NCBI GenBank assembly: GCA_949290645.1
Contig: CASESG010000001.1
Span: forward strand, 5,104-69,103
Length of the DNA stretch: 64,000 nucleotides
Source of the DNA: an uncultured Bacillota bacterium
GTDB lineage: Bacteria > Bacillota_I > Bacilli_A > RFN20 > CAG-288
Reading direction: 5' to 3'
Numbering within the stretch: the first letter of the stretch is position 1; every line of letters begins with the position of its first letter. A program made the position numbers and the translations under genes. This document shows positions 175-60,806 of the stretch, piece after piece. A model generated the notes under the pieces. It worked only from the letters and a program-made list of their open reading frames with translations. It had not been told where the DNA came from and ran no database searches.

Positions 175-1095
175 TCATTTCAGGCGAGACATCATCTTGT
201 CGATGCATTTTTTCTTCTGGCGATTGTCGGGATGGACATATAGGTTTAGCGTTGTTCCGATGTTGGCGTGTCCCAGGATGGCGCTGAGGGCTTTGTAATC
301 GCATCCGGCTTCCACGCAGCGCGTCGCAAAGCTGTGCCTCAGGCCATGGAAGCGGACTTGCGGCATGTCTAGTTTCTTGAGCAGTCGGGAATAATAGGCC
401 CGAAACGCCCTCGGTTCGAGAGGTTTCTTGCTGTTGGTGAGAACGTAATGGCTCGGCTCGGTGATTTTCCCGATGGACTTCAGCCTTCTCAGCAGAGAAT
501 GGGAAAGCGGGATCTCTCGTTCCGACGAGGAGGTCTTGGGCTTGTCGATGCGAATCTCGGATTTCTTGTTTTCGAAAGAGTAGACTCTCTGTATCGTTCT
601 CCGGATGGTGAGGATTCCCGCTTCCAGGTCGATGTCCTGAAAACGAAGAGAACAGACCTCACCGATTCGAAGGCCTTCTTCGAGGCAAAGGCTGATTCCA
701 AGATTGTGGAAGGAGAAATGGGTGTCCAGATAACGAAGAAGTTTCTTTTGTTCCTCCAACGTGAAAACCGGAAGGTTTCTTTTTTCCTCGAAGACCGGAT
801 ATTGAACGTCGACTTTTTGATAAGGCCAGTTCCCCTTTGAGCATCCGTAATAGTAGATGGATTGTGCCAAAGAGACACGACACTTGATGGTCTTTGCCTT
901 GAGGCCTCGCTTTTTCTGGGAAAGAGCGAAATCTTGCAATTGGCTTTTGAATGGGACTTTCATGGACTGGAAGTAATGGACGAAGACGTTTTCGATGCCC
1001 CATCGATAAAGGGCATATGTCGAGGGCTTGATGTAATCTTTCCGTTCCTCGAGAAAGTCATGGGCGATTTCCATAAATGATTTTTGCACGATCAT
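175..1095 (-). CDS. Tyrosine site-specific recombinase (integrase/invertase family)
   Basis: 306-aa ORF. The catalytic signature is readable: GLRIGE (Arg), HGLRHSFAT (H-x-x-R), LGHANIGTTLNLYVH (His/Tyr region). GGAGG abuts the ATG at 1095, so GTG at 1089 may be the true start. Confidence 0.9.
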   Translation of the reverse strand: MIVQKSFMEIAHDFLEERKDYIKPSTYALYRWGIENVFVHYFQSMKVPFKSQLQDFALSQKKRGLKAKTIKCRVSLAQSIYYYGCSKGNWPYQKVDVQYPVFEEKRNLPVFTLEEQKKLLRYLDTHFSFHNLGISLCLEEGLRIGEVCSLRFQDIDLEAGILTIRRTIQRVYSFENKKSEIRIDKPKTSSSEREIPLSHSLLRRLKSIGKITEPSHYVLTNSKKPLEPRAFRAYYSRLLKKLDMPQVRFHGLRHSFATRCVEAGCDYKALSAILGHANIGTTLNLYVHPDNRQKKKCIDKMMSRLK

Positions 1096-1111
1096 CCTCC
1101 GTCACTAATAT
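1084..1111 (+). promoter_or_regulatory. Candidate sigma-70-type promoter reading into the invertible cassette and methyltransferase operon
   Basis: TTGCAC (1084-1089), 16-nt spacer, TAATAT (1106-1111) on the + strand, just left of the left inverted repeat. Identified by eye only. Confidence 0.3.
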
Positions 1112-1157
1112 TGGCGTCCTGCCTCAATGACGTGCGGAGGCAAAAAGAAAAAGTGTA

Positions 1158-1544
1158 TTAAGCAGGATGCTTAAGGCTCAAAAGTTCCTTAAGTTGCCAC
1201 CAAAGGACGCCTTTTTTGCCCTCAATGCCTGTTTTCGAATGCGTTTTTCGCGCAACAGAATAATCTTGACAAGGAAAGCCAGCAGTCAAAAGGTTGAAAT
1301 CCGGAAGAAGGCTTTTGTCGACCTTGGCAATGTCAATGTTATCTAATCTTTCGGTATTGAAACCAAAACGTTTTTGATAGCAATCAAATGCATACTGCTT
1401 CTTTCTTCCAGGTTCCCATTGATTAGCGTAAACAAAATCAAAACGTTTCTTTTCTTTTGTCTTTCCATCGATGAGACGCACTTTGTTCAAACCGACACGG
1501 AATCCTCCGACTCCAGCAAAAAGTTCTATAGCCGTTGTTTTCAT
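1158..1544 (-). CDS. DNA (cytosine-5)-methyltransferase, N-terminal module (motifs I-IV), inverted relative to the rest of the gene
   Basis: 128-aa ORF MKTTAIELFAGVGGFRVGL...AGFPCQDYSVA...LKHPA. It has the AdoMet motif I (FAGxGG) and the catalytic motif IV (PCQ). It stops at TAA exactly at the IRL boundary. Confidence 0.85.
   Translation of the reverse strand: MKTTAIELFAGVGGFRVGLNKVRLIDGKTKEKKRFDFVYANQWEPGRKKQYAFDCYQKRFGFNTERLDNIDIAKVDKSLLPDFNLLTAGFPCQDYSVARKTHSKTGIEGKKGVLWWQLKELLSLKHPA
1159..1176. repeat. Left inverted repeat (IRL) of the intragenic invertible cassette
   Basis: TAAGCAGGATGCTTAAGG is the exact reverse complement of 1559-1576. The site itself has 7-bp palindromic arms TTAAGCA/TGCTTAA (1158-1164 and 1168-1174) around an asymmetric GGA centre. 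Confidence 0.9.
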
Positions 1545-1558
1545 AACTCAATTATAAT

Positions 1559-1576
1559 CCTTAAGCATCCTGCTTA
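1559..1576. repeat. Right inverted repeat (IRR) of the intragenic invertible cassette
   Basis: CCTTAAGCATCCTGCTTA is the exact reverse complement of 1159-1176. The central trinucleotide is TCC (inverted relative to IRL), which fits inverted rather than direct site orientation. Confidence 0.9.
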
Positions 1577-2432
1577 CGGAATATTGGAGAATGTCAATCG
1601 ACTGGTTCTTTCCCCTAAAAAACAACGGGGAAGAGACTTTGGAATCATCCTTCGATGTTTGGATGATTTGGGATACTCGGCATGCTGGAGAATATTGAAT
1701 GCTGCTGACTATGGATATCCTCAGCGAAGAAGAAGGACCTTCATTTTCATCTATAGAAACGATTTGAATTATTCGAAAGACATTTCAAAGCACGAGCCTG
1801 AGGATGTCCTTTTGAAGGAAAGCATTTTTGCGAAAGCGTTTCCTGTCGATTCTCTTTCCTCATCCCTTTCGACATACTCTTTGGTGGATGACTATCATGA
1901 CCTGGTCGAGGTCTCCGATCGCTTTCGTGCGCATTTCGATAATGCAGGCTGGATGCACAAGGGGATTGTTTACACAGCGAAAGTCAAATCAAAGGAAAAG
2001 CCGATGTGTCCGCTGTCGAACATTGTCCTTCCTTGCACGGACTCTTCTTTCTATCTGACGGACAAGCAGAGGGATCAGTTTTCCTATCTGCGGGGGAAGA
2101 AGAAAGTCCAGAGAAAAGCATCGACAGGGCTCTCCTATCAGTATTGCGAGGGAAGCATGTCTCCTTTTGATTCGCTGGACCTTCCCGGAAGAACGATGCT
2201 GACAAGCGAAGGCTCGGTCAATCGTTCGAGCCACATCATTCCCGATCCCAAGACAGGGCGTCTTCGTTTCCTTACGCCCGTGGAGTGTGAGAGGCTCAAT
2301 GGTTTTCCGGACGGATGGACCGATACGGGCATGCCACGATCCTCGCGCTATTTCATGATGGGAAATGCCCTTGTCTGTGGCATTGTCGAGAAGCTTGGCG
2401 ACCAACTTCTGAAAATCATGAAGGAGGATTGA
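1560..2432 (+). CDS. DNA (cytosine-5)-methyltransferase, C-terminal module (motifs VI-X plus target-recognition region), lacking its own N-terminus in this orientation
   Basis: Reads LKHPAYGILENVNRLV (motif VI ENV), YGYPQRRRRTFIFIY (motif VIII QRR), and FMMGNALVCGIVEKLG (motif X GNA). The track ORF 1374..2432 starts at a TTG, and its first ~62 codons are antisense to the N-terminal module. Confidence 0.85.
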   Translation, partial: LKHPAYGILENVNRLVLSPKKQRGRDFGIILRCLDDLGYSACWRILNAADYGYPQRRRRTFIFIYRNDLNYSKDISKHEPEDVLLKESIFAKAFPVDSLSSSLSTYSLVDDYHDLVEVSDRFRAHFDNAGWMHKGIVYTAKVKSKEKPMCPLSNIVLPCTDSSFYLTDKQRDQFSYLRGKKKVQRKASTGLSYQYCEGSMSPFDSLDLPGRTMLTSEGSVNRSSHIIPDPKTGRLRFLTPVECERLNGFPDGWTDTGMPRSSRYFMMGNALVCGIVEKLGDQLLKIMKED

Positions 2433-2434
2433 TA

Positions 2435-3151
2435 ATGTCCCTTGATGTCTCGTTTCTTCGTCAGTTTTCTTCTTTGATTCAGTCGGCCTATGCCATTCGT
2501 GGAAAGACGATCGAGGAGGTTCAGGCTTGGACTTCAACGGCGACGGTCTCCAAGGCGCAAAGTTATTTCGCAATCCGGAATTTCCTCAAGAAGGCCTGCC
2601 CCAACGATGGCTTGCAATCATTGCTGGATTATGCGGATATCGCTCTCAAGACGATCGCGTTGGACGAAAAAGGGAGGCTGACCGAGAGCATGTCTTTCTC
2701 TGCTTTCGAATTCTGCAAGGTGGCGACGGAATCCTGGGAATCATCGAGCGTTCAAGCGATGTTTTCGAAGAACTTTTGGTTCTTCGTGACCTATCAAAAA
2801 GGAGAAAAGAACGTTGTTCTCACGGACTTCTTCTGGCGACTTTCGAAAGAAGATTTGGCGTCTGTCCAGTGTTTGTACGAAAGCTACCAAAGAAAATTGT
2901 TGCAAGGAGAGGTCTATGCGAAAGACAAAAATAACGCTGTCGTTCCGGCCTTTCGTCTCGATGGATGCCGGGTGTCCCACATTCGCCCGCATGCCGCAAA
3001 CAGAGAAGATACCTTTCCCCTCCCTGTCGCCGATCGCCTGACGGGACGGAAAAGTGCGACGAAGCAATCCTTCTGGTTGGACAAAGCCTATCTTGAGGAG
3101 ATCGTGAGAATCAATCTTTCTCCCGTGGAAAAGGAGGTCATTGGAAAATGA
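2435..3151 (+). CDS. Putative MutH/Sau3AI-family restriction endonuclease or nickase (238 aa)
   Basis: ATG at 2435 lies 2 nt after the methyltransferase stop. The C-terminal SHIRPHAANREDTFPLP...TKQSFWLDKAYLEEIV resembles the MutH/Sau3AI tail (RPKAAN...FYLKK, recalled from memory). Its position directly behind an m5C methyltransferase fits an R-M pair. Confidence 0.45.
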   Translation: MSLDVSFLRQFSSLIQSAYAIRGKTIEEVQAWTSTATVSKAQSYFAIRNFLKKACPNDGLQSLLDYADIALKTIALDEKGRLTESMSFSAFEFCKVATESWESSSVQAMFSKNFWFFVTYQKGEKNVVLTDFFWRLSKEDLASVQCLYESYQRKLLQGEVYAKDKNNAVVPAFRLDGCRVSHIRPHAANREDTFPLPVADRLTGRKSATKQSFWLDKAYLEEIVRINLSPVEKEVIGK

Positions 3152-4374
3152 TGATCGACAAGGAAACTTTGGAGAAGAAAGCGACGAAGCCGCTCAGAAT
3201 TCACGATCAGCTTCAAACCTTCGACACCTATGCGATTCCTCTTGAGAAGCTCTTTTACAACGATCGAAACGGTCGTATCGCGACGTTCATCGATGAGGAA
3301 GAACTGCGCAAAGACCATTCCCGAGAGGAAATCAAGAGGCTGATGGAAGAGGACATCGCCAGGTACAACGACTTCATCGGCAAGGCCATCAAGGGGGCAG
3401 AAAAGCCGGACTCTTACGAAAAGACCCTGAAAGACATCGAGCACAAGGGACAGATGGTCGCGGGCGTCGTGCTGGATGACGGAAGGATCATCGACGGGAA
3501 TCGAAGGTTCACTGTCCTTCGGGAACTCTACCGGAAGAAGGCCGAGCAACGGTTCTCGACGTTCGAAGCGGTCATCCTTCCGGTGCCTGCCTCGGAAACG
3601 GAGCAGAAAGCCATCACCCTTCTGGAACTGGAGCTGCAGCACAACGTCGACAATCAAAGGGACTATTCCCCCATCGATCGACTGGTCGACTTCTACAAAA
3701 AATGCTGCGATGAAAGGACAAGGACGATCTCGGAAGAGGAATACCGATCCTATGCCAACGTTCCGGCGAAAGAGCTGGCAAGCCTCAAGAGACAGACGGA
3801 AATCATGTTGGAATACTTGGAATGGAGGGGACAGCCGAAAGCGTTCTATCTTCTCAAGGAAGAAGATCTCAACGGACCGCTTGTCGAACTTGCCAATGCG
3901 AAAACGAAATTCTCCGAACACAACTGGCTGGAATTCCGGGACTATTTCTTCGCCCAGATCACCTTAGTGTCCGGAGACAAGACAAGAAACATCCGCAACC
4001 TCATCAAGCTGGCCAAGGAATCCCCTGAGCATGTCCGCCAAATGGTGCAGGCGTTGGACAAAGAAGGAGCCTTTCTCGGAAAGGTCGATGACATTCTGAG
4101 GAAGGAAAAGGAAGGGGTGCAGACTCCGGAAGATACCCACGAAAGGCGGAAATTGGGAGAGGACTTCCTGTCCTTGCAAAAGGAGGCGATTTACCAAAAG
4201 GAGAAGGAGAAGAGCCAGAACAGTCCCCTGGAGAAGCTGCGAAAGGCGCAGACGCTTTGCGATGAAGTCCGTTGGCAGGACATCAAGGAGACGACCGGAG
4301 AAAACAGGAAAGAGATCCAGAAAATCCTTGCGGAGATCACTTGCGCCCTGGAGAAGATCAAGGGCTATTTCTAA
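3148..4374 (+). CDS. ParB/Srx-fold (ParB N-terminal nuclease-like) domain protein, 408 aa
   Basis: The ATGA overlap with the upstream gene suggests translational coupling. VVLDDGRIIDGNRRFTVLRELY resembles the ParB-box DGxxR region. The remainder is helical with no family I recognise. Confidence 0.6.
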   Translation: MMIDKETLEKKATKPLRIHDQLQTFDTYAIPLEKLFYNDRNGRIATFIDEEELRKDHSREEIKRLMEEDIARYNDFIGKAIKGAEKPDSYEKTLKDIEHKGQMVAGVVLDDGRIIDGNRRFTVLRELYRKKAEQRFSTFEAVILPVPASETEQKAITLLELELQHNVDNQRDYSPIDRLVDFYKKCCDERTRTISEEEYRSYANVPAKELASLKRQTEIMLEYLEWRGQPKAFYLLKEEDLNGPLVELANAKTKFSEHNWLEFRDYFFAQITLVSGDKTRNIRNLIKLAKESPEHVRQMVQALDKEGAFLGKVDDILRKEKEGVQTPEDTHERRKLGEDFLSLQKEAIYQKEKEKSQNSPLEKLRKAQTLCDEVRWQDIKETTGENRKEIQKILAEITCALEKIKGYF

Positions 4375-6972
4375 ATGGAAAGAAAGGCTTCCTTGGCGGA
4401 TCTGAGCTTTCAGGGGACCTACGATCCCGCGGTTCCCGGACATGATGCCATCGAGGAGCTTTACCTCCCCTGCCTTTCGCTGGCAAAACGATACGATCGC
4501 GTCTCCGCCTATTTTTCCTCCCGTTCCTTGCAGAGCTATGCCAAGGGCCTCCACGCCTTTGCGAGAAACGATGGTCGCATCCGTTTTGTCTTCTCCAATC
4601 AAATTTCGCCAAAGGAAATGGATGACATCGTAGAGGCCTACAAAAGACGTGAGGCACAGATGGTAGAAGACCTGAAGAAGCATTCCGATGAACTCAATGA
4701 CGACTTTGAAGTTGCCAATCTTTCTTATCTGATTCGGCATGGAATCGCAGAAGTGAAGATTGCCTTCATGACGAACGACCTGGATTCCCTGTTTCATCAA
4801 AAGTTCGGGATCTTCACGGATGAACAGGGCTGCTCGGTTGCCTTCAGCGGTTCCAGCAACGAGACCCTGGAGGGCCTGAATTACAATTCGGAACTTCTGG
4901 ATGTCTTCACCCCGAAGGACTCGATGTCGAAGATCGAGGATCGCAAGCAGCGCTTCGAGAAGATTTGGAACGGAACCTATAGTCCCAAGATGCGCGTCTT
5001 CTCGCCCAGCGAGTCCTTTTTCGAGGAACTGGTCGCCTATGATCGTGGGCGTGTCTTCTCCTCTTTGCAAGAGTACCTGGAATGTCGCAAGGAACGGCTT
5101 TCCCTGGACCATGTCCTTTTGGATGTCGATGAACGAGCCAACCATCTTCTCGTCGAGAACCTCCTCTGCCATCCTTCGTGCGACCGTGCCCTGTCGGGGC
5201 TGATGTCTCTCAAGAAAGGCCGGAAAGTCGGTTCCTGGAGCTATCGCTTCCCCGAGATTACCCTTTCCTTGGCACGGGAGATTCAGGAGGCTCTGCGCCG
5301 TCGATTGATTCCGTTCCGAATCTCATCCTCATTGCAATCGGTCCTCGACCAGCTCAACCGGAAGCTGGAGCGCCGGCTCCAATGGGCGCAGAAGATCAAG
5401 CGCGGGGAAGACGAGGATCTCTGGCATGATGACTATGAGGCTTTCCGAAGAGTCGTCGAAAAGAACACGATGGTCCCTCTGAAGGACTTCCAGATGCGTG
5501 CGGCATACTTCCATTATCGATTGATGTCTTCGGCCGATTATTCCGTTCCTGGCTCGGGAAAGACTTTCATCGCCTATGGCCTCTTTGCCTATCTGCGCGC
5601 GACCGGCCAGGCCCATCGCTTGGTCGTTCTCTCTCCGCTCAACGCTTTCATGGCCTGGGAGGAAGAGGGACGGAAGATCTTTGGCGCGGAAAAGCCCCTT
5701 CATTTCTTCAACAGGGAAAAGCAGGATGGCGATTGTGCGGAAACACTGCTCCGCGATCGATACGATGTCTACTTGTTCAATTATGAGTTTCTGAATTCCG
5801 AAGAGAAAGCGGAAGTCGTCCGAAGACTGCTGGATGACAAGACGATGATCGTCTTCGACGAAATTCATCGCATCAAGAATCCGGAAGGAATGCGCGCCGG
5901 ATGGGCCAAACGACTGTTTCGCACCTATCCCCGACCCCTCTTTCGCCTGGCGCTGACGGGAACGCCCTTGCCCAATTCCTTTCAGGACATCCAGAACACG
6001 ATTGAGATTCTCTACTCCGATGACAAGGACCTGTTTGACGCCTTCTGTTCGAAGAATCTTCGGGAGGCCGACCGAAACGAGGCCGTTGCCCAGGAGATTC
6101 GGCGTCAGTTGTATCCGACTTTCATCCGCGTGACCAAGAGCCAATTGCAGATTCCGGAAGCCGAGAAGGACGATCTCGAGACTCTTGCCGTCGAACCGGA
6201 CGAGGGGCAAAGACGGCTGCTTGGAGAGCTGTGGCGCAAGATTCAAAATCCGCTTCTCCTCTTTGTCCGCCTGATCCAGGCGTCCTCGCACCCGGCCTTG
6301 CTGGAAAAGGAAATCGATGACGGAACGTGGGAGGAACTGGACCTCTCGCTCGAGGGCAAGCCGACCGAAAGGTGGACCTTGTCCGCCGAAAGCCAGGAAT
6401 ACCTTCGTCTCCATCCGCTGTCCCGAAAGACTCTGACGGCCCTTTCTCATATCCAATCCGCCGCACAAGAAGGGAGGAAGGCCCTGCTCTGGTGCCTGTT
6501 CCTGGACACGATCGATTCTTGCCAAGGATGGCTGGAGAAGGAGGGTGTCCGCGTTCTCTCCGTGACGGGAAGGGATTCGGAGCGGCAAAGGGAGGAGAAG
6601 ATTCGTCTCTTTCGCGACGGTGATGTCTCGGTCCTTGTCACCAACCCCAACACGTTGGCGGAATCGGTGTCCTTGCACCAGACATGCCACGAAGCGGTCT
6701 ATCTCGAATATGGCTTCAACCTCACCTACCTGATCCAGTCCAAGGACCGCATCCATCGCGTCGGTCTGCCTCCGGGCACCAAGACCCGTTACCTCTTTGC
6801 CATCACGGAAGGCGATGAAGCGCGCGGTTCTTCGATCGATCGTCGGATTCTCGAACGGCTGGAAAGAAAGAACGAAAGGATGCGCAAGACGATCGAAAGC
6901 GACGACTTGGCTTTGGAAGTCGATCGTCAGACGCTCCTGGAAAGCATTCGGGATATTTTGGAAAATCCATAA
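4375..6972 (+). CDS. Fusion of an N-terminal PLD-family nuclease domain and an SNF2/SF2 helicase (865 aa)
   Basis: Starts directly after the upstream TAA. PLD HxK motif: LFHQKFGIFTD...FSGSSNET. Helicase motifs: VPGSGKTF (I), VFDEIHRIKN (II, DEIH), LTGTPLPNS (III), and C-lobe VLVTNPNTLAESVSLH...LIQSKDRIHRVGL (V-VI). Confidence 0.8.
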   Translation: MERKASLADLSFQGTYDPAVPGHDAIEELYLPCLSLAKRYDRVSAYFSSRSLQSYAKGLHAFARNDGRIRFVFSNQISPKEMDDIVEAYKRREAQMVEDLKKHSDELNDDFEVANLSYLIRHGIAEVKIAFMTNDLDSLFHQKFGIFTDEQGCSVAFSGSSNETLEGLNYNSELLDVFTPKDSMSKIEDRKQRFEKIWNGTYSPKMRVFSPSESFFEELVAYDRGRVFSSLQEYLECRKERLSLDHVLLDVDERANHLLVENLLCHPSCDRALSGLMSLKKGRKVGSWSYRFPEITLSLAREIQEALRRRLIPFRISSSLQSVLDQLNRKLERRLQWAQKIKRGEDEDLWHDDYEAFRRVVEKNTMVPLKDFQMRAAYFHYRLMSSADYSVPGSGKTFIAYGLFAYLRATGQAHRLVVLSPLNAFMAWEEEGRKIFGAEKPLHFFNREKQDGDCAETLLRDRYDVYLFNYEFLNSEEKAEVVRRLLDDKTMIVFDEIHRIKNPEGMRAGWAKRLFRTYPRPLFRLALTGTPLPNSFQDIQNTIEILYSDDKDLFDAFCSKNLREADRNEAVAQEIRRQLYPTFIRVTKSQLQIPEAEKDDLETLAVEPDEGQRRLLGELWRKIQNPLLLFVRLIQASSHPALLEKEIDDGTWEELDLSLEGKPTERWTLSAESQEYLRLHPLSRKTLTALSHIQSAAQEGRKALLWCLFLDTIDSCQGWLEKEGVRVLSVTGRDSERQREEKIRLFRDGDVSVLVTNPNTLAESVSLHQTCHEAVYLEYGFNLTYLIQSKDRIHRVGLPPGTKTRYLFAITEGDEARGSSIDRRILERLERKNERMRKTIESDDLALEVDRQTLLESIRDILENP

Positions 6973-7027
6973 GACAACCGCTTTTCCGTCCGATGTTTCG
7001 GCCATTGCCGTGTTCGCCTTTTGAGCG

Positions 7028-7036
7028 TGGTAAAAT
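7028..7036 (+). promoter_or_regulatory. Candidate extended -10 promoter element for the DUF2130-like gene
   Basis: TGgTAAAAT at 7028-7036, followed by GGGAGGA (7045-7051) and ATG at 7060. No convincing -35 was seen. Confidence 0.3.
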
Positions 7037-7059
7037 AATGTCATGGGAGGAAGGCAAAC

Positions 7060-8448
7060 ATGGAAATTCAGGTCTCCGTGAAGGACAAGGACACCCTTGT
7101 CTTGCAAACGGATGCACATGTCGGGGACATCATCTGCCTCAACAAGATCAGCAATGTCGATCTGTCGGCCATCCAGGACCTTTTGTCCAGGGAGATGGAG
7201 AGAGAAGTCCAGAAGAAGATCCAGGAAGCTCTTTCCCGCCAGCAGAGGGAACTGGAGGCGACACATGCTGCGGAACTCCAGAAGAGTCTCGCCGGACGGG
7301 ACGAACAGTGGAGAGTGAAGAACCAGGAATTGGAGAAGAGCCTTTCGGAAGTCCGACATCAGAAGGACATGGCGCTCAAGGAAAAGGAGGCCGAACTTCA
7401 ATCTCTACATGAAATTCAAAAGACGGCTCTTGAAAACAAGGAATTGGAAGTTCGCCAATCCCTTCAGAAAGAACTCAACGATCAGAAACTTTTGAATCAG
7501 AATCTTAACCTGCAGCTGGAGAATCAGCAGAAGATTCACGAGCAGGAGAAAGAAAACATCCGAAAGATGACGGCCCTGGAAACGGAGAACCGGTTCAACA
7601 AGGAAAAGGAAGAGATGAAGGATTCCTTTGTCCGGGAAAGGGAGGAACTGGAGCGCCAGATTGCCCAGCTCCAGAACACCAAGGCCTCCCTCAACGTGAA
7701 AAGGATCGGGGAGAACCTCGAGCAATGGTGTTCCAACGAAGTTCTGTCCTATATGCAGAACGGCTTTTCCAACTGCCTTTGGAAGAAGGACAACGCTGTC
7801 GTCCAGGAGGAAAACGAGGCGCACGGAAGCAAGGCCGACTATCTTTTCTGGATCTATGCCTCGGAAGAGAAAAAGGAGGAGGAGCTTCTGGCCGGGATCT
7901 GCTTGGACATGAAAGACGAAAACCCGGATTCCACCAATCGGAAGACCAACAGCGACTATTTCCGACAGCTGGACCGGAATCGCACGAAAAAGCATTGCAA
8001 ATACGCCGTCCTGGTCTCTAACCTGGAACTCGATCGTCCCAACGACATCCCGATCTATCGTGTCCAGGAATATCCCGACATGTACGTCGTTCGCCCGGCC
8101 TATCTCATGACCTTCCTCAACATGATTGTCTCCTTGACGACGTATTTCTCGAAGATGATTCTCAAGGATCGGGACAAGACCAACAAGGAAATCGCCTTCG
8201 ACGAATACCACAGGAAATTCGAGGAACTGAAGAATACCTATCTCGACAAGCCCTTGGCCTCGCTGTCGAAGTCGATCGAGGAGCTGTACAAGCAGAACGA
8301 GGCCATCAGCAAGGCCAGCGACCGGATTTCCGAGACGCTGGACGGCATCAAGAGAAGCTATCTCCAACAGATTGAGGAGAAGCTCGCACGCCTCTCCGAA
8401 AAGCTCGGTGCGGAAGAGCGGAAGTATCTTCGCAAAATCGGACAATGA
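7060..8448 (+). CDS. DUF2130-like coiled-coil protein with a C-terminal nuclease-like core (462 aa)
   Basis: A long E/K/Q-rich coiled coil is followed by GENLEQWC...KADYLFWIY...GICLDMKDE...DRNRTKKHCKYAVLVSNLE...YPDMYVVRP. This matches my recollection of the conserved DUF2130 core. Confidence 0.6.
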   Translation: MEIQVSVKDKDTLVLQTDAHVGDIICLNKISNVDLSAIQDLLSREMEREVQKKIQEALSRQQRELEATHAAELQKSLAGRDEQWRVKNQELEKSLSEVRHQKDMALKEKEAELQSLHEIQKTALENKELEVRQSLQKELNDQKLLNQNLNLQLENQQKIHEQEKENIRKMTALETENRFNKEKEEMKDSFVREREELERQIAQLQNTKASLNVKRIGENLEQWCSNEVLSYMQNGFSNCLWKKDNAVVQEENEAHGSKADYLFWIYASEEKKEEELLAGICLDMKDENPDSTNRKTNSDYFRQLDRNRTKKHCKYAVLVSNLELDRPNDIPIYRVQEYPDMYVVRPAYLMTFLNMIVSLTTYFSKMILKDRDKTNKEIAFDEYHRKFEELKNTYLDKPLASLSKSIEELYKQNEAISKASDRISETLDGIKRSYLQQIEEKLARLSEKLGAEERKYLRKIGQ

Positions 8449-8540
8449 CAAGAAAAAAGCGGAATCGGATAGGAATCTTGCCTCGAAGCGGAGTATAATT
8501 TCATCGAAAATTGTAAAGATTTCCCCGGAGAAAGAAACGT

Positions 8541-10526
8541 ATGAAAAGCAAACTCCGATTCTTGGCGCCGTTCTTCGCCTTGGCCTTGACGGCCTGTGAG
8601 AACTTTCCTCGACCGAGCTTTCCCCTCTTGAGCAGCGGTTCCTCCGTGCAAAACTCCTCGGAGGACACCTCCCTTTCCTCGGACGATCCGACTTCTTCGA
8701 CGACCTCTTCCTCCACTTCTTCTTCGGCGTCTTCTTCCTCTTCTAACTCATCGTCTTCGACGTCCACGGGTCCGATACAGGAAGAGAAGGCGACGGTACG
8801 GGTCTCTTCGGACATCGTCGGGGGAGCGGTCGTGCTGGAAGGATACGGGACGGAAGCCGAGGTTCCTCTCGGCACGGAAATCCATCTCCTCGCGACACCG
8901 GAGGAAGGATATTCCCTGACGGAACTGACGGTCAATTCGGTTTCGGTCCTTTCGACTTTGTCTTTCGTCGCCGAGGAAAAGACGACGTACCTGGTCGAGG
9001 CAGAGTTCACCGAGGAAGTCGTCACCGTGACGGAGGGGGCCATTCGCTTTGCGGGCCTCGATCAAGACGGCAGCCTCAGCTTGGACGAGTCGAATCTTGT
9101 CCTGGAGAATGTCGACGTCGCTTCCGTCTCTTCTTCGGGACTCTTCCATGACAGCGAGAACGATTCTTCGAATTTCCGCATGGCCACGGGAAAGAATGCC
9201 GGCATGGTCACCTTCTGCTTCTCCGAGGAAATCACGATCGAGGAAGTCGTCCTCCATTACGAGCCTTATCATAACGACACGCCGGAGGTCACGGTCTCCA
9301 CGGACTCGCAATCCTTGGCCCAAGGAGAATCCTCAAGAACATACGACTTTGGTGGAGAACTTACGAGTCTACTGAAAATTCAATGTCCAAGTGGAAAACG
9401 AATCATTCTTTCTGGAATTGACATTTTTTTCAAGGAAATCGAGGTTGTCCCAGTCCCTGCGACGATTTCCATCACCAATGAAGGAAACGGAGATGTTTCG
9501 ATCAGCCCGAGCTCGGAGTGGATGGTCGGAGATACGATCACGGTCACGGCAACTCCAGAGGAGGGGAACTATCTCTCGCGGCTGACTTTGAACGGTGCGA
9601 ATGGAAAATCCCTTGGCAACAGCCGCTATTCATTCGTCATCAAGGACGTGTCCAACACGTTGTCGGCAATCTTCCGCGAGCGCGGCGCGATCTCGGAGGA
9701 TTATTCCTACCTCTATGCGAACGAGTCGATCTTCCCCGATCGCGGAAATCAGTCCGTCGACATCGACGAATACTACGAACCGATCCGCGGGCTTTCGGGC
9801 CTGGCCCTGAAGGAAGGCCTTCACGACATCATCGACGATCACGAGGAGTTTTCCTATGATTCCGCCAACGATTCGCTCCCGGTGATCGACACCGATCCCT
9901 TTGACAGCGGAAAAGTCCACCTGATCTATCAAAGCCAATTGAAGAACCGGGGCGTTTCCTTCAACAAGGAGCACACCTGGGCCAAGAGCCATGGCGACTT
10001 CGGCACGAGAAAGCCGATGGGGTCGGATCTCCACAACCTCCGAATGTGCCACAACAACCTCAACTCGACAAGGAGCCACCTGGATTTCGCTGAAGTGAGT
10101 CATTCCTCTTCCACCAGCGTCGTCGACAAATACGACTGGGCCCAATCCGATATGGAAGGGAACTATCGCGGGAGCAACTACTTTGAGCCGCAGGACGAAT
10201 GGAAGGGCGATGTCGCACGCATCATCTTCTACATGGCGACAAGGTATGACGGAGGCTCGGGCGAGGTCGATCTGGAGGTCTCGGGCGATATCGACACCAC
10301 GCGCTTCTACGACTTCTCTTCCGGAGCGGACGGACTTCACGGAAACTTCGCCGACCTCTATGAGTGGGCGACGTCCGGAATCGATCCCGTCGACGACTAC
10401 GAGGTCAGCCGCAACAACGTCTGCGACCAGGAATATCAGCACAATCGCAATCCCTTCATCGACCATCCGGAGTTCATCATCATGATCTATGACAAGAACT
10501 ACGATGGCCCGGGTGCCTTGATGTAA
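8541..10526 (+). CDS. Surface lipoprotein with a C-terminal endonuclease I / extracellular (ribo)nuclease domain
   Basis: Signal peptide plus lipobox FFALALTAC. Ser-rich linker SSTTSSSTSSSASSSSSNSSSST. C-terminal FNKEHTWAKSHGDFG...GSDLHNLRMCHNNLNSTRS resembles the Endonuclease_1/Bsn family. Confidence 0.75.
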   Translation: MKSKLRFLAPFFALALTACENFPRPSFPLLSSGSSVQNSSEDTSLSSDDPTSSTTSSSTSSSASSSSSNSSSSTSTGPIQEEKATVRVSSDIVGGAVVLEGYGTEAEVPLGTEIHLLATPEEGYSLTELTVNSVSVLSTLSFVAEEKTTYLVEAEFTEEVVTVTEGAIRFAGLDQDGSLSLDESNLVLENVDVASVSSSGLFHDSENDSSNFRMATGKNAGMVTFCFSEEITIEEVVLHYEPYHNDTPEVTVSTDSQSLAQGESSRTYDFGGELTSLLKIQCPSGKRIILSGIDIFFKEIEVVPVPATISITNEGNGDVSISPSSEWMVGDTITVTATPEEGNYLSRLTLNGANGKSLGNSRYSFVIKDVSNTLSAIFRERGAISEDYSYLYANESIFPDRGNQSVDIDEYYEPIRGLSGLALKEGLHDIIDDHEEFSYDSANDSLPVIDTDPFDSGKVHLIYQSQLKNRGVSFNKEHTWAKSHGDFGTRKPMGSDLHNLRMCHNNLNSTRSHLDFAEVSHSSSTSVVDKYDWAQSDMEGNYRGSNYFEPQDEWKGDVARIIFYMATRYDGGSGEVDLEVSGDIDTTRFYDFSSGADGLHGNFADLYEWATSGIDPVDDYEVSRNNVCDQEYQHNRNPFIDHPEFIIMIYDKNYDGPGALM

Positions 10527-10534
10527 GATACAGG

Positions 10535-10587
10535 AAAAGCCGTGCTTTCTCTCCCTTCGATGGGGAAGGAAAACACGGCTTTTTTTA
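10535..10587. terminator. Bidirectional intrinsic terminator between convergent genes
   Basis: AAAAGCCGTG (10535-10544) pairs with CACGGCTTTT (10574-10583), with flanking A and T runs. Confidence 0.6.
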
Positions 10588-11232
10588 CTTCACGGTACCG
10601 AAGATTCGATCTCCGGCATCTCCAAGGCCCGGGCAGATGTAGGCGTTTTCGTTGAGGCATCGATCCAGGGCTCCGACGTAGAGGGGAACCTCGGGATAGT
10701 GCTCGTGGAAGTTCTTGACGCCTTCCGGAGCGGCGATGATGCAGATGAAGGTGATGTTCTTGCAGCCCTTCTCCTTCAGGAGCTTGACGGCATCGCAGGC
10801 CGAGCCACCGGTCGCCAGCATCGGATCGAGGACATAGATCTCGCGGTCGGCGATGCTGTAGGGAAGCTTGCAGTAGTATTCGTGTGGCTCATGGGTGACT
10901 TCGTCGCGGTAGAGTCCGATGTGGCCGACTTTGGCGGAGGGAACCAGTTCCAGCATGCCCTCGACCATGCCAAGTCCCGCTCTCAGGATGGGGACGAAGC
11001 AGAGCTTCTTTCCGGAGATCTTGGGCTCCTTGGCGTTTTCGATCGGGGTCTCGACATCGACCAGCTCGGTCTTGAGATGGCGCAGGGCTTCATAGCCTTC
11101 CAGGACGGCGACTTCCTTGACCAGACGGCGGAACTCGTTTGTTCCGGTCTTCTTGTCGCGCAAGATCGTGATCTTGTGCTGCAAGAGCGGGTGGTCGAGA
11201 TAGATGACGTTCTTCATCTTCTTTTCTTCCAT
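10585..11232 (-). CDS. upp: Uracil phosphoribosyltransferase
   Basis: [23 protein letters not shown]...[10 protein letters not shown]...[12 protein letters not shown] is the typical Upp pattern. Start chosen at ATG 11232 (MEEKK), preceded by AAAGGAG. Confidence 0.9.
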
Positions 11233-43658: not shown

Positions 43659-43734
43659 GGATGCTTAGCTCAGCTGGAAGAGCATCGCCTTTACACGGCG
43701 GAGGTCAGGAGTTCGAGACTCTTAGCATCCACCA
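43659..43734 (+). tRNA. tRNA-Val (anticodon TAC)
   Basis: Cloverleaf folded by hand: acceptor GGATGCT/AGCATCC, anticodon loop TTTACAC, T-loop GGAGTTCGAGACTCT, encoded CCA. Confidence 0.9.
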
Positions 43735-43761
43735 CTGAAAGAAGCGCAGAAATCGATTTGT

Positions 43762-43845
43762 GGGCGAGTAGCGAAGTGGCCAAACGCGGCAGACTGTAAA
43801 TCTGTTCCTTCGGGTTCGGTGGTTCGAATCCACCCCCGCCCACCA
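43762..43845 (+). tRNA. tRNA-Tyr (anticodon GTA), long variable arm
   Basis: The loop CAGACTGTAAATCTG carries GTA. T-arm GGTGGTTCGAATCCACC, encoded CCA. One A-C mismatch in the acceptor stem. Confidence 0.85.
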
Positions 43846-43890
43846 TCCCTTCGGTAGCAACGCATCTGCGTTCTATATCCGTGCCTTACT

Positions 43891-43964
43891 TGGGGTATAG
43901 CCAAGGGGTAAGGCAACAGACTTTGACTCTGTCAGCGGTGGTTCGAATCCACCTACCCCAGCCA
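43891..43964 (+). tRNA. tRNA-Gln (anticodon TTG)
   Basis: Acceptor TGGGGTA/TACCCCA, anticodon arm CAGACTTTGACTCTG, T-arm GGTGGTTCGAATCCACC, CCA. Confidence 0.9.
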
Positions 43965-43992
43965 TCCTTCTAGCCCGAGGAAGCCCCGAACC

Positions 43993-44068
43993 GTCTCGTT
44001 AGCTCAGTTGGTAGAGCACGTGACTTTTAATCACGGGGCCATGGGTTCGAGTCCCATACGAGACACCA
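43993..44068 (+). tRNA. tRNA-Lys (anticodon TTT)
   Basis: Acceptor GTCTCGT/ACGAGAC, anticodon arm GTGACTTTTAATCAC, T-arm ATGGGTTCGAGTCCCAT, CCA. Confidence 0.9.
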
Positions 44069-44080
44069 CTCCTCTGTTCC

Positions 44081-44168
44081 GCCCAGGTGGCGAAACTGGT
44101 AGACGCACAGGACTTAAAATCCTGCGGGCTTATCACCCATACCGGTCCGATTCCGGTCCTGGGCACCA
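44081..44168 (+). tRNA. tRNA-Leu (anticodon TAA), long variable arm
   Basis: Acceptor GCCCAGG/CCTGGGC, anticodon arm AGGACTTAAAATCCT, CCA. Confidence 0.9.
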
Positions 44169-53733: not shown

Positions 53734-53830
53734 GTTTTTTCCCTCCAGGATTCATGGCAATCGAAACACGTCGATTTGAAGGAAAAGGTCATTCGATCGC
53801 CTGAGTCATGATCTTGACGTTTTTGCCGGT

Positions 53831-54461
53831 GTAGAAGACGAATCTGAAATCACAATACTACCAAACTCGACGACTATCAGTTCGAGCGGGTCTACCGTAG
53901 AAGACGAATCTGAAATCACAATACTACCAAACCGGGGATGACGGGAACTATCAGGGCGACATGTAGAAGACGAATCTGAAATCACAATACTACCAAACTT
54001 TCTGATACCAGTATTCGAGAACGATTTTGTAGAAGACGAATCTGAAATCACAATACTACCAAACAAATGCCGACTGAAAGACTTAGCAATCAAGGTAGAA
54101 GACGAATCTGAAATCACAATACTACCAAACCCAAGCCGTTGTCAAATGTTGGCCCTATGGGTAGAAGACGAATCTGAAATCACAATACTACCAAACTCTC
54201 TCCAATAGTTTTAGGAAGGTCCGTATGTAGAAGACGAATCTGAAATCACAATACTACCAAACTATTTCCGCAAATTGAATCCGCTCTCGTCTGTAGAAGA
54301 CGAATCTGAAATCACAATACTACCAAACATATAGAGTTCCGTTCACTGTCGTGTTCTTGTAGAAGACGAATCTGAAATCACAATACTACCAAACATGTCT
54401 TCACCGTTGTAACTTTTAGGCATGAGTAGAAGACGAATCTGAAATCACAATACTACCAAAC
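53831..54461 (-). CRISPR. CRISPR array: 10 identical 36-bp repeats and 9 spacers (eight of 30 bp, one of 31 bp)
   Basis: The + strand repeat is GTAGAAGACGAATCTGAAATCACAATACTACCAAAC, at 53831, 53897, 53963, 54029, 54095, 54161, 54227, 54293, 54359 and 54426. Its reverse complement GTTTGGTAG...CTAC has the GTTT...AC polarity of type II-A repeats, so transcription is inferred on the minus strand from the csn2-proximal end. Confidence 0.97.
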
Positions 54462-54509
54462 CTCAATTGATGAGATTTTCAGTGGTTTTTTGCGATTTCC
54501 TATATTATT

Positions 54510-55208
54510 TTAGTTTTCCTTGTCATTGATTGCAATGTGTTGTTCATACAGATCTTCATCGATTCGGATGACTCTTTCACTTGTCGAATTGATGTCTTTT
54601 ATATGACTGGACAGAAGGAGAAAAGAGATTTCTGCACGCCTCATCTCCTGTTGGAAGAGATGAAATTCTTCTTTGTCCAGAAAATCGTGAAGGTTGTAGA
54701 AGAGAAAGACTTCCTTTTTATAGACATGTCGGATGAGACGGATTTTCATGACCAGGTTTTCGAGCCAATTCTCTTCTTGAAGAAGAGGGGCAAGGGCAAA
54801 GGCCTTGAGAATGGTAGTGAGGGAGGTTTCGTTGTCGATGGTTAGAGGGACGGGATAGTCATAGAGAGTCTCATGCAGGAATTCCTGAAGCCTGTTCGTG
54901 ATATCCTGGAAGGAATCCTTTTGTTCGTCGCTCAAGCGGGAAGGGATGTCTTTCTGAAGAAAGGTTCCGATCTTCTTGTCATCCAAAGGACAGTGGAAGA
55001 CATCGAAGAGAAAGAAACCGACTTTCGAGAAGTCCTTTTCCTTGCCGTTATCAAAGTAGTGGAAGAATTCCTCTCCTTCTTCCAGCTGTGTCTCGATTCC
55101 GTGAAGAAAATAGCGAAGCAAGGAAGTGTTTTCGATGACGAGATGTGTCGTTTTCTCTCCATCGAGTGTCAGTTCGGCCTCGATTCTGTGATGCTTCAGC
55201 GTTTTCAT
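54510..55208 (-). CDS. csn2: Csn2 (type II-A adaptation protein)
   Basis: 232-aa ORF immediately downstream of cas2 (4-nt overlap) and 48 bp from the array. Size and position fit Csn2. Sequence similarity was judged only loosely by eye. Confidence 0.75.
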   Translation of the reverse strand: MKTLKHHRIEAELTLDGEKTTHLVIENTSLLRYFLHGIETQLEEGEEFFHYFDNGKEKDFSKVGFFLFDVFHCPLDDKKIGTFLQKDIPSRLSDEQKDSFQDITNRLQEFLHETLYDYPVPLTIDNETSLTTILKAFALAPLLQEENWLENLVMKIRLIRHVYKKEVFLFYNLHDFLDKEEFHLFQQEMRRAEISFLLLSSHIKDINSTSERVIRIDEDLYEQHIAINDKEN

Positions 55209-55543
55209 AATTCGACGACTTTCTTGTCCGTGTGGACGATGTCGGTCGTGAATTCGCCCAAGAGGTTTTCGATCCCGGCGAACTGCTTCTCCGTGACGGT
55301 CAGAAGGGAGACCATTCCCTTGGGAGGAAGGTGGGCATCGATGGCCTTTCTCATCCGGTCGATCGCCGCATCGTTGACGGAGAGTTTGACATAGACGGAT
55401 TCCTGAAACATGATGAAACCGATGCTCTTGAGAAACTTCACGAACTGGCGGTAATGCCTTCGGTTTGCTGCGGTCAACGTCGGAAGGTCGAACATCAGGA
55501 TGGATCGCATATATCTATAGGTGCTCATCTGCGAATGTGACAT
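55205..55543 (-). CDS. cas2: Cas2
   Basis: STYRYMRSILMFDLPT...FQESVYVK is the typical Cas2 N-terminus. The true start is possibly ATG 55528. Confidence 0.9.
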   Translation of the reverse strand: MSHSQMSTYRYMRSILMFDLPTLTAANRRHYRQFVKFLKSIGFIMFQESVYVKLSVNDAAIDRMRKAIDAHLPPKGMVSLLTVTEKQFAGIENLLGEFTTDIVHTDKKVVEL

Positions 55544-56390: not shown

Positions 56391-56394
56391 GGCG

Positions 56395-60798: not shown

Positions 60799-60806
60799 GA
60801 GGTGAT

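What the first reader, a model, noticed from the sequence alone, without database searches (positions are those of the whole stretch)
1084..8448. Candidate undescribed composite defence system: switchable m5C methyltransferase, MutH-like nuclease, ParB-like protein, PLD-SNF2 fusion, DUF2130
Seen in the sequence:
- Five same-strand genes have junctions of +2 nt, a 4-nt ATGA overlap, and 0 nt. Only an 87-bp gap precedes the last gene.
- Readable domains include a PLD HxK motif fused to a complete SF2/SNF2 helicase motif set, a ParB-box-like IDGNRR, and a MutH/Sau3AI-like C-terminus.

Established knowledge, recalled from memory:
- C5 methyltransferases combined with PLD nucleases and SF2 ATPases occur in ATP-dependent R-M systems of the NgoAVII/CglI type and in class 2 DISARM.
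- ParB-like proteins combined with SNF2-like helicases and a PLD protein occur in Dpd clusters.
- This locus lacks the defining partners of each: no DUF1998/DrmB, no B3-like R subunit, no TGT/DpdA.

Inference: this gene combination, gated by a recombinase-driven switch, is not a system I can name. It may act by methylation-dependent self/non-self nicking followed by helicase-nuclease processing.
Basis: partly seen in the sequence, partly recalled or inferred. Interest (0 to 1): 0.9.

Follow-up and report, generated by a model that had tools for sequence, protein, structure and literature searches.

The report
Switchable AbiR-like methylation-gated defence cassette
This is a four-gene anti-phage cassette: a cytosine methylase, a catalytically dead Sau3AI-type GATC reader, a ParB-like protein and a nuclease-motor fusion. 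It is related to the known but mechanistically unsolved lactococcal AbiR system, and a neighbouring recombinase flips its methylase gene on and off.

Summary
All gene junctions are exact. An 18-bp perfect inverted repeat (1159-1176 / 1559-1576) encloses the first 128 codons of an m5C methylase, and in-silico inversion restores a 413-aa enzyme. Near-identical contigs break at the repeat, and one carries an ON-type junction.

- The "MutH-like nuclease" is a homologue of the non-catalytic C-terminal domain of Sau3AI. It lacks both catalytic acidic residues, so it is probably a GATC reader.
- DUF2130 is not conserved with the cassette.
- The system can be named. ParB-like + PLD-SNF2 is a pair conserved in about 80 genomes, usually preceded by a sigma70/alpha-CTD-like protein. 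This triad matches published lactococcal AbiR (AbiRa/b/c). AbiR needs the methylase of the Sau3AI-isoschizomer LlaKR2I system and is toxic without it.

The window carries an undescribed AbiR variant. AbiRa is replaced by an in-operon Sau3AI-type methylase plus the standalone reader, in at least 10 independent loci. A tyrosine-recombinase inverton is added in three lineages.

The likely mechanism is ATP-dependent restriction of DNA lacking GAT(m5C) methylation, phase-varied as a unit. I rate it a new variant of a known kind, with interest 0.6.

The parts
175..1095 (-). Tyrosine recombinase (306 aa), the presumed invertase of the adjacent switch
   Evidence: Pfam Phage_integrase 4.6e-30 and NCBIfam Xer/invertase-type hits. 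A homologue sits in the same position in L002 (2e-115). Another lies downstream of the operon in L006 (2e-75), next to an independent inverton. dN/dS against L002 is 0.15.
1159..1183 (.). Left inverted-repeat arm (perfect core 1159-1176, TAAGCAGGATGCTTAAGG)
   Evidence: The core is identical in L002 and in 8 further contigs of the same species.
1158..1544 (-). Methylase N-terminal 128 codons (motifs I FxGxG and IV PCQ), in the inverted (OFF) orientation. A TATAAT lies 6 nt upstream of its ATG, inside the invertible DNA.
   Evidence: dN/dS against L002 is 0.125, so the piece is under purifying selection although inverted.
1552..1576 (.). Right inverted-repeat arm (core 1559-1576). It encodes LKHPA(Y), just upstream of methylase motif VI (ENV).
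   Evidence: Contigs L001, L091 and L092 begin exactly at this arm, and L090 begins 12 nt before it.
1578..2432 (+). Methylase C-terminal part (motif VI onward, target-recognition domain, motifs IX/X). Together with the inverted piece it forms a 413-aa Sau3AI/LlaKR2I-type m5C methyltransferase.
   Evidence: Pfam DNA_methylase 3.5e-59 and PADLOC MTase_II 1.8e-149. It is 54-56% identical (TRD about 42%) to methylases next to bona fide Sau3AI-family endonucleases. dN/dS is 0.10.
2435..3151 (+). Standalone homologue of the Sau3AI C-terminal (allosteric, non-catalytic) domain, 238 aa. Presumed reader of unmethylated GATC.
   Evidence: NCBIfam restrict_Sau3AI matches model positions 298-474 of 475 only (1.4e-26). 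PDB 2reu/4pxg C-domain at 2e-7. The MutH D70 and E77 equivalents are Leu and Ala, and no orthologue has the Glu. dN/dS is 0.14.
3148..4374 (+). ParB/Srx-fold protein (408 aa, invariant DGNRR), AbiRb-like
   Evidence: No Pfam or PADLOC hit. AF2 model pLDDT 90. Top Foldseek hits are pNOB8 ParB-N 5k5d, Noc 7nfu and sulfiredoxin 6ky4. 5K5D is also the entry reported for AbiRii. More than 1386 homologues, and a SNF2 gene is its immediate downstream neighbour in 71 of 79 loci.
4375..6972 (+). PLD(HKD) nuclease fused to a SNF2-family ATPase (865 aa), AbiRc-like effector
   Evidence: Pfam PLDc_2, SNF2-rel_dom, ResIII and Helicase_C. The N-terminal 225 aa hit PADLOC PbeA at 4.7e-65. The best PDB sequence matches are CHD1L, Sso Rad54-like and ISWI. 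The single HKD and the helicase motifs are intact and conserved.
7060..8448 (+). Coiled-coil + DUF2130 protein (PD-(D/E)XK superfamily). A neighbour, probably not part of the system.
   Evidence: Pfam DUF2130 5e-34, listed in the PD-(D/E)XK superfamily (PMC3424549). It follows the cassette only in the window species and L002, and is absent after the cassette in L004, L006, L108, L109, L111 and L114.

Best explanation
The locus is a compact, phase-variable member of the AbiR family of anti-phage systems.

**Shown**
- Four translationally coupled genes encode:
  1. a Sau3AI/LlaKR2I-type C5-cytosine methylase;
  2. a standalone copy of the Sau3AI C-terminal DNA-binding domain that lacks the catalytic residues;
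  3. a ParB/Srx-fold protein (AbiRb-like);
  4. a single-HKD PLD nuclease fused to a SNF2 ATPase (AbiRc-like).
- A tyrosine recombinase sits next to an 18-bp inverted repeat that flips the first 128 codons of the methylase gene.

**Inferred mechanism**
- The methylase marks host GATC as GAT(m5C).
- The dead Sau3AI domain takes the place of the usual sigma70-like AbiRa subunit. It finds unmethylated GATC on incoming DNA.
- The ParB-like NTP-binding protein couples this recognition to the SNF2 motor.
- The motor translocates on DNA. Two single-HKD domains must pair to form one active site, which then cuts the DNA or blocks replication.
- The published toxicity of AbiR without its methylase makes an effector-ON, methylase-OFF state untenable. 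The inversion therefore most likely carries the operon's start signals (TATAAT 6 nt before the ATG, a leaderless geometry) and silences the whole cassette.
- The result is a population that is mostly OFF with an armed minority.
For: **Architecture and motifs:**

**Reader, not nuclease:**

**The ParB-like/SNF2 pair is conserved**
- SNF2 directly follows the ParB-like gene in 71 of 79 loci.
- The gene before it is usually a large protein of 800-1100 aa. It has RpoA-alphaCTD-like repeats, a sigma70 region-4 HTH and a conserved C-terminal domain.

**Match to AbiR**
- The review PMC13064643 describes AbiRa as sigma70-like. It describes AbiRb as ParB-like (best PDB 5K5D). It describes AbiRc as a SauUSI-like endonuclease N-terminus plus a Snf2 C-terminus.
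- AbiR function requires the LlaKR2I methylase, and AbiR is toxic without it.
- My independent Foldseek top hit is the same entry, 5k5d.

**Link to Sau3AI-type modules**
- The methylase lies within about 6 genes in 20 of 37 PLD+ loci, against 1 of 35 PLD-less loci (Fisher p = 9e-7, not corrected for phylogeny).
- In 8 Bacillus/Planococcus-type loci the dead Sau3AI domain is fused to the C-terminal domain of the AbiRa-like protein (BLASTP 4e-34). This is a Rosetta-stone link.

**The same four parts recur**
- They appear in the same order in L002-L006, L108, L109/110 and L111. They appear in a different order on a L. plantarum conjugative plasmid, L114.
- In L004 the genes after the cassette are unrelated: a MerR regulator and a dehydrogenase.

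**The switch works in nature**
- Inversion restores the ORF.
- Both halves of the methylase are under purifying selection between the window and L002, with dN/dS 0.125 and 0.10.
- Contigs L001, L091 (a 333-kb scaffold) and L092 end exactly at the 25-nt repeat, and L090 ends 12 nt from it. The repeat is shorter than common assembly k-mers (my assumption).
- The chimeric contig L089 carries an ON-type left junction.
- L006 has an independent 39-bp inverton. It encloses about 250 bp of upstream DNA plus about 220 codons, is in the ON orientation, and has a homologous recombinase.
Against: - No sequence of the pKR223 AbiR proteins was available. The AbiR assignment rests on published domain descriptions, a shared PDB match and the methylase link.
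- AbiRa is absent here.
- GATC is abundant and not specially avoided in the window (6.8 per kb, O/E 0.76).
- No sigma70-type promoter was found beyond what shuffled sequence gives. Silencing of the effectors in the OFF state is therefore an inference.
- Every full contig of this species, and L002, is in the OFF orientation. No full-length methylase at 90% identity or above exists among 5.8 billion proteins. The ON state has never been assembled cleanly.
- PbeA-type systems were reported not to cleave DNA (PMC6459918).
Confidence: 0.6

Rival explanations
1. There are two unrelated modules side by side. One is a decayed Sau3AI-type R-M system: an orphan, phase-variable methylase acting as an epigenetic regulator (phasevarion), plus a leftover fragment of the endonuclease. 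The other is an independent ParB-like/PLD-SNF2 defence pair.
For: Invertons in methylase genes are a known means of epigenetic phase variation (PMC11741434, PMC9881135). About half of the ParB-like/SNF2 loci have no methylase nearby. The pair also follows type III R-M genes in lactobacilli and in a Lactococcus plasmid.
Against: - The +2, -4 and 0 nt junctions couple the genes tightly.
- The 238-aa protein is under purifying selection (dN/dS 0.14). It is conserved at full length in at least 10 loci.
- Its domain is fused to the AbiRa C-terminal domain in 8 loci.
- The four parts stay together when reordered.
- AbiR is published to depend on this type of methylase.
Confidence: 0.12
2. The mechanism is Pbe/Ssp-like. 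Methylation of host DNA is needed to license or activate the effector, which halts phage replication without cutting. An OFF cell is then simply inert.
For: The PLD domain scores 4.7e-65 against PADLOC PbeA. PbeABCD needs the host modification for activity, shows no DNA cleavage, and is not toxic without modification (PMC6459918). AbiR reduces phage DNA replication. The OFF orientation is the majority state without evident harm.
Against: AbiR is reported to be toxic when its methylase is absent. That is the behaviour of a restriction-type system, not of Pbe. The HKD catalytic residues are invariant. The reader domain derives from an enzyme whose cleavage is blocked by m5C at GATC (my recall of Sau3AI properties).
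Confidence: 0.15
3. The MutH-like protein is an active nickase that cuts the unmethylated strand, and the helicase-nuclease then processes the nick.
For: Pfam MutH and NCBIfam MutH hits. The Lys of the MutH E-x-K motif is kept as K72, which is invariant.
Against: The match covers only the Sau3AI C-terminal domain, which is the effector domain. The MutH D70 and E77 positions are Leu and Ala here. In orthologues the E77 position is A, S, N, W, H, Q, K or V, and never Glu.
Confidence: 0.05
4. The inversion is a fixed rearrangement or an assembly artefact. The methylase is then a dead gene and the cassette a decaying remnant.
For: All complete contigs of the species, and L002, show the same OFF orientation. 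No clean ON contig exists. L084 shows small deletions next to both repeats.
Against: - dN/dS is 0.10-0.125 on both halves, at dS about 0.9-1.9, with no stop codons or frameshifts.
- The repeat core is perfectly conserved while the flanks diverge by about 20%.
- Three contigs end exactly at the repeat and a fourth ends 12 nt away. L089 carries an ON-type junction.
- The recombinase gene is intact and adjacent.
- L006 has an independent ON-state inverton.
Confidence: 0.06

Closest known systems
AbiR of Lactococcus lactis plasmid pKR223 (AbiRa/b/c plus the LlaKR2I methylase)
   Same: ParB-like protein followed by a fusion of an endonuclease N-terminus and a Snf2 C-terminus. Genetic link to a Sau3AI-isoschizomer m5C methylase. 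The published toxicity without the methylase fits a restriction-type logic (PMC13064643). The same best PDB match, 5K5D, for the ParB-like subunit.
   Different: No sigma70-like AbiRa. Instead there is a standalone dead Sau3AI C-domain. The methylase is the first gene of the operon rather than belonging to a neighbouring R-M system. There is no full-length endonuclease. A recombinase inverton is added. Sequence-level orthology to pKR223 could not be tested.
Sau3AI / LlaKR2I type II restriction-modification
   Same: The methylase is 54-56% identical to methylases paired with bona fide Sau3AI-family enzymes. The 238-aa protein is homologous to the Sau3AI C-terminal domain.
   Different: The catalytic N-terminal MutH-like domain is missing entirely. 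The nuclease function would come from the PLD-SNF2 protein.
CglI / NgoAVII ATP-dependent restriction enzymes
   Same: An m5C methylase, a PLD-family nuclease and an SF2 motor. Cleavage needs NTP-driven translocation (PMC4267653, PMC5737866).
   Different: In those systems the PLD domain is fused to the B3-like DNA reader and the DEAD-Z1 motor is separate. They have no ParB-like subunit.
SauUSI (type IV) and PbeA (PbeABCD / CxC-ABC-DndE systems)
   Same: An N-terminal single-HKD PLD nuclease fused to an SF2 ATPase. The PLD domain scores 4.7e-65 against PbeA models. AbiRc is reported to resemble SauUSI 7CLG.
   Different: SauUSI carries its own 5mC-reading domain and attacks modified DNA. Pbe works with a CxC ABC ATPase, DndE and phosphorothioation (PMC10853773). 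None of these partners is present here.
Inverton-controlled R-M and methylase genes (epigenetic phase variation)
   Same: A site-specific recombinase and short inverted repeats rearrange a methylase gene (PMC7672463, PMC9881135, PMC11741434).
   Different: The classical cases shuffle type I hsdS or flip promoters. Here the 5' third of a type II-like m5C methylase heading an AbiR-type operon is flipped, between motifs IV and VI.

Membership tests
AbiR (lactococcal three-gene system) | AbiRb: ParB-fold protein | tested here: met
   AF2 model pLDDT 90. Top Foldseek hit is 5k5d (pNOB8 ParB-N), the entry reported for AbiRii.
AbiR (lactococcal three-gene system) | AbiRc: N-terminal restriction-endonuclease-like (SauUSI-type PLD) domain plus a C-terminal Snf2 ATPase, encoded directly after AbiRb | tested here: met
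   Pfam PLDc_2 + SNF2-rel_dom + Helicase_C, intact HKD, 0-nt junction after the ParB-like gene. Direct similarity to 7CLG was not detectable by sequence.
AbiR (lactococcal three-gene system) | AbiRa: sigma70-like protein encoded upstream | tested here: not met
   Absent from the window and from L001-L006, L108-L111 and L114. Present at position -1 in 46 other loci of the family.
AbiR (lactococcal three-gene system) | Functional dependence on a Sau3AI-isoschizomer (LlaKR2I) m5C methylase | tested here: inconclusive
   A methylase of that type is the first gene of the operon. It is associated with PLD+ family members (20/37 against 1/35). Dependence itself needs genetics.
AbiR (lactococcal three-gene system) | Sequence homology to the pKR223 AbiR proteins | not testable with these tools
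   Twomey 2000 and Yang 2006 are not held. pKR223 was not found in the plasmid collection. PADLOC v2.0.0 gave no AbiR hit.
Sau3AI-family type II endonuclease / MutH | Catalytic D-(x)n-E-x-K site in an N-terminal MutH-like domain; NCBIfam restrict_Sau3AI score of at least 300 bits | tested here: not met
   93.5 bits, covering model positions 298-474 only. The D70 and E77 equivalents are Leu and Ala.
PbeABCD / CxC-ABC ATPase-DndE system | HKD-SF2 protein together with a CxC-type ABC ATPase, a DndE cognate and a small disordered protein | tested here: not met
   Only the HKD domain matches PbeA. There is no ABC ATPase or DndE in the operon.
CglI / NgoAVII-type R-M | R protein made of PLD + a B3-like DNA-binding domain, with a separate DEAD-Z1 H/N protein | tested here: not met
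   PLD is fused to SNF2. No B3-like or Z1 domain was found.
DISARM class 2 | DrmA (helicase) and DrmB (DUF1998) together with DrmMII and DrmD | tested here: not met
   Only weak DrmD-type and DrmMII-type hits to the generic SNF2 and methylase domains. No DrmA or DrmB.
Dpd (7-deazaguanine) system | DpdA (TGT), DpdB (ParB-like) and DpdC with the restriction genes DpdD-K | tested here: not met
   No PADLOC DpdB hit for the ParB-like protein. No TGT or DUF328 gene. Only weak DpdE hits to the SNF2 core.

The most novel reading that the evidence does not exclude
AbiR-type systems are a distinct, widespread class of NTP-dependent restriction enzymes. In this class a ParB-like clamp couples an exchangeable DNA-reader subunit to a SNF2-PLD motor nuclease. 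The window shows the minimal form: self/non-self reading has been handed to a domesticated fragment of a type II restriction enzyme, and the whole unit is bet-hedged by an intragenic inverton.
Probability: 0.35. Interest if true: 0.75.

Novelty: new variant of a known kind. Interest (0 to 1): 0.6.

Why it matters
AbiR has been known since 2000. According to a 2026 review, it remains unclear how its three proteins act together.

The compact variant found here suggests a concrete and testable answer to why AbiR needs a Sau3AI-type methylase. A catalytically dead copy of the Sau3AI GATC-binding domain serves as the methylation reader for a ParB-like/SNF2-PLD motor nuclease. In the window it stands alone. 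In Bacillus-type loci it is fused to the AbiRa C-terminal domain.

The finding also shows three further things:
- a type II restriction enzyme fragment re-used as a specificity subunit;
- the ParB-like/SNF2 pair as a cassette found in many phyla and on enterococcal and lactobacillal plasmids;
- a defence system that is toxic without its methylase being placed under an invertible switch.

Tried and rejected
- **PADLOC and NCBIfam.** Neither classifies the ParB-like protein or the AbiRa-like protein.
- **Literature searches.** Searches combining ParB, SNF2, PLD and Sau3AI found nothing directly relevant until the lactococcal Abi review. The primary AbiR papers are not held and the review has no held supplements.
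- **JGI metagenome scans.** The scan for the repeat plus flank gave no hits. The scan for the repeat core gave 15 hits, all unrelated.
- **Looking for a clean ON-state methylase.** A search of 5.8 billion proteins found only truncated products.
- **Word-indexed search with the 238-aa protein.** It found only its own cluster. The exhaustive HMMER search worked.
- **Structure prediction of the 238-aa protein.** The single-sequence model was useless, with pLDDT 37.
- **Promoter and terminator scans.** Hits did not exceed shuffled controls.
- **GATC avoidance.** Observed/expected is 0.76, similar to other palindromes, so this is uninformative.
- **PLD domain against PDB by sequence.** No hit.
- **Viral contigs.** Only 7 relatives in 2.9 million contigs, so this is not a phage function.
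- **Neighbour survey of 130 flanking genes.** R-M and mobile-element families lead the list, but contexts are very diverse.
- **DUF2130 as a system member.** Rejected on synteny.

Full report
**1. Observation**

The ORF list and raw sequence confirm five same-strand genes with the stated junctions.
- The methylase ends at 2432.
- The 238-aa gene runs 2435-3151 (+2 nt junction).
- The 408-aa gene runs 3148-4374 (ATGA overlap).
- The 865-aa gene runs 4375-6972 (0 nt junction).
- The DUF2130 gene runs 7060-8448 (87-nt gap).
- A tyrosine recombinase lies divergently at 175-1095.

Domain scans give DNA_methylase, MutH (weak), no family for the 408-aa protein, PLDc_2 + SNF2 + Helicase_C, DUF2130 and Phage_integrase. 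The HKD motif and the SNF2 motifs are intact and conserved across relatives.

**2. The switch**

An inverted repeat lies at 1159-1183 / 1552-1576, with an 18-bp perfect core. It encloses the methylase N-terminal 128 codons, which sit on the minus strand. Inverting 1159-1576 in silico restores one 413-aa ORF with motifs I, IV, VI and VIII in order.

Evidence that the switch operates:
- L002, whose proteins are 52-58% identical, has the same layout, an identical repeat core and the same 368-nt spacing.
- An exact-protein look-up found 23 contigs of the window's species.
  - Five are in the OFF orientation like the window.
  - L084 is OFF-like, with small deletions next to both repeats.
  - L091 (a 333-kb scaffold) and L092 begin exactly at the right repeat arm, as does L001 (found). 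L090 begins 12 nt before it.
  - L089 is a chimeric contig with an ON-type left junction that flips back mid-segment.
- A 25-nt repeat is shorter than common assembly k-mers (my assumption). Breaks at that point therefore suggest two alternative continuations in the reads.
- Both methylase halves are under purifying selection between the window and L002, with dN/dS 0.125 and 0.10.
- L006 (Bacillales MAG) has an independent 39-bp perfect inverton. It encloses about 250 bp of upstream DNA plus about 220 methylase codons. It is in the ON orientation, and a homologous recombinase (2e-75) lies downstream.

No clean ON-state methylase of this species exists among 5.8 billion proteins. OFF is therefore the majority state in the samples assembled so far.

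**3. The "MutH-like" protein**

- It matches only positions 298-474 of the 475-position Sau3AI model.
- It matches only the C-terminal domain of Sau3AI crystal structures.
- Orthologues from L004 and L006 behave the same way. Full-length neighbours in other loci pass the Sau3AI cut-off at 450-572 bits.
- Alignment with E. coli MutH (sequence recalled from memory) and with both Sau3AI domains puts Leu and Ala at the D70 and E77 positions. No orthologue has the Glu.

It is thus a copy of the non-catalytic effector domain. I infer that it reads GATC.

An exhaustive HMMER search found 714 representative clusters. They are a mix of standalone proteins of about 220-260 aa and C-terminal halves of full-length enzymes.

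**4. The ParB-like protein and its family**

- The protein has more than 1386 homologues and no Pfam family.
- Its AF2 model (pLDDT 90) matches the pNOB8 ParB N-domain, Noc and sulfiredoxin.
- A genome scan returned 80 loci across Bacillota, Treponema, Collinsella, Bacteroidota, Leptotrichia, Endomicrobia and one archaeon.

My ORF-level phmmer survey shows the following.
- The gene is directly followed by a SNF2 gene in 71 of 79 loci.
- About half of these SNF2 proteins carry the N-terminal PLD domain.
- In 46 loci the preceding gene encodes a large protein, called X here, usually of 800-1100 aa. X has RpoA-alphaCTD-like repeats, a sigma70 region-4 HTH and a conserved C-terminal domain.
- The Sau3AI-type methylase lies nearby in 20 of 37 PLD+ loci and in 1 of 35 PLD-less loci (p = 9e-7, not corrected for phylogeny).

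The Sau3AI-type module takes three forms:
- a full Sau3AI R-M system next door;
- the dead domain fused to the X C-terminal domain (8 loci; BLASTP 4e-34);
- the standalone dead domain with no X, as in the window.

The four-gene form recurs in L002-L006, L108, L109/110 (next to Hachiman) and L111 (next to an MvaI/BcnI R-M). It recurs in a different order on a L. plantarum conjugative plasmid.

DUF2130 follows the cassette only in the window species and in L002. L002 has a collagen-like gene upstream of the recombinase, as do the window-species contigs, so at least that flank looks syntenic. I therefore do not count DUF2130 as a member.

**5. Identity**

The last literature lead was a 2026 review of lactococcal Abi systems (PMC13064643). 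It describes AbiR of pKR223 as three genes:
- a sigma70-like protein;
- a ParB-like protein (best PDB 5K5D);
- a protein with a SauUSI-like endonuclease N-terminus and a Snf2 C-terminus.

According to the review, the AbiR loci flank the LlaKR2I R-M system, which I recall to be a Sau3AI isoschizomer. AbiR function requires the LlaKR2I methylase, and AbiR is toxic without it. AbiR lowers phage DNA replication. How its components work together is stated to be unclear.

This matches the X / ParB-like / PLD-SNF2 triad and its methylase link point for point. The window is therefore an AbiR-family variant. Sequence-level confirmation was not possible.

**6. Mechanism**

The best-supported reading is a restriction-type system.
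- The methylase protects host GATC.
- The dead Sau3AI domain finds unmethylated GATC.
- The ParB-like NTP-binding protein couples recognition to the SNF2 motor.
- Single-HKD domains must pair to cut. This follows from established knowledge of Nuc, BfiI, NgoAVII and SauUSI.

AbiR without its methylase is toxic, yet the OFF orientation dominates in nature. The inversion must therefore silence the effectors too. Two observations are consistent with this. A TATAAT lies exactly 6 nt upstream of the methylase ATG inside the invertible DNA, and it is conserved in L002. The L006 inverton carries the whole upstream region. This step is inferred, because promoter scans were uninformative.

Rivals are listed with their evidence in the rival-explanations section: separate modules, Pbe-like licensing, an active nickase, and a dead gene.

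**7. Verdict**

The system is not categorically new. It is an undescribed, compact and phase-variable variant of AbiR, and its anatomy offers a testable explanation for AbiR's methylase dependence.

Noticed in passing
window 53817-60825: A complete type II-A CRISPR-Cas locus on the minus strand: cas9 (1476 aa, 56395-60825), cas1, cas2 and csn2 (54510-55208). At least 10 copies of the 36-nt repeat GTAGAAGACGAATCTGAAATCACAATACTACCAAAC lie at 66-nt spacing (about 53831-54461).
   Followed up: partly
L006 7728-8684 and 13939-14877: An independent inverton in a Bacillales MAG. A 39-bp perfect inverted repeat encloses about 250 bp of upstream DNA and the first ~220 codons of the orthologous methylase. 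It is in the ON orientation, and a homologous recombinase lies downstream of the operon.
   Followed up: partly
L056, L064, L070, L079 and L112 (Lactococcus plasmid pIBB109_AgSa_3, 4008-12022): In lactobacilli and in a Lactococcus conjugative plasmid, the ParB-like/SNF2 pair (without PLD) directly follows type III Mod and Res genes. The pair may therefore serve as an add-on to several R-M types.
   Followed up: partly
L113 (E. faecalis pQZ076-2, 5402-11077) and 51 other Enterococcus plasmids: The PLD-less triad is common on enterococcal plasmids. It is annotated as sigma factor-like HTH protein, hypothetical protein and DEAD/DEAH helicase.
   Followed up: no
window 1096-1146 (- strand RNA): The recombinase leader can fold into a hairpin (-21.6 kcal/mol, z = -2.5) that pairs CCUCCG with the GGAGG ribosome-binding site. 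The pairing partner is not conserved in L002, so its significance is doubtful.
   Followed up: partly
L084 3066-3460: One contig of the same species has a 42-bp deletion just inside the left repeat and a 12-bp deletion just outside the right repeat. This may be a locked or mis-assembled variant of the switch.
   Followed up: no
window 8541-10526: A lipoprotein with InlB B-repeat-like domains and a C-terminal Endonuclease I domain lies directly downstream of DUF2130. It looks like a secreted or surface nuclease unrelated to the cassette.
   Followed up: no
window 43659-44165: A cluster of five tRNA genes.
   Followed up: no
L114 13369-13806 (L. plantarum plasmid): A Vsr (very short patch repair) endonuclease gene sits next to the reordered four-part cassette. 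This fits a cassette that creates 5-methylcytosine.
   Followed up: no
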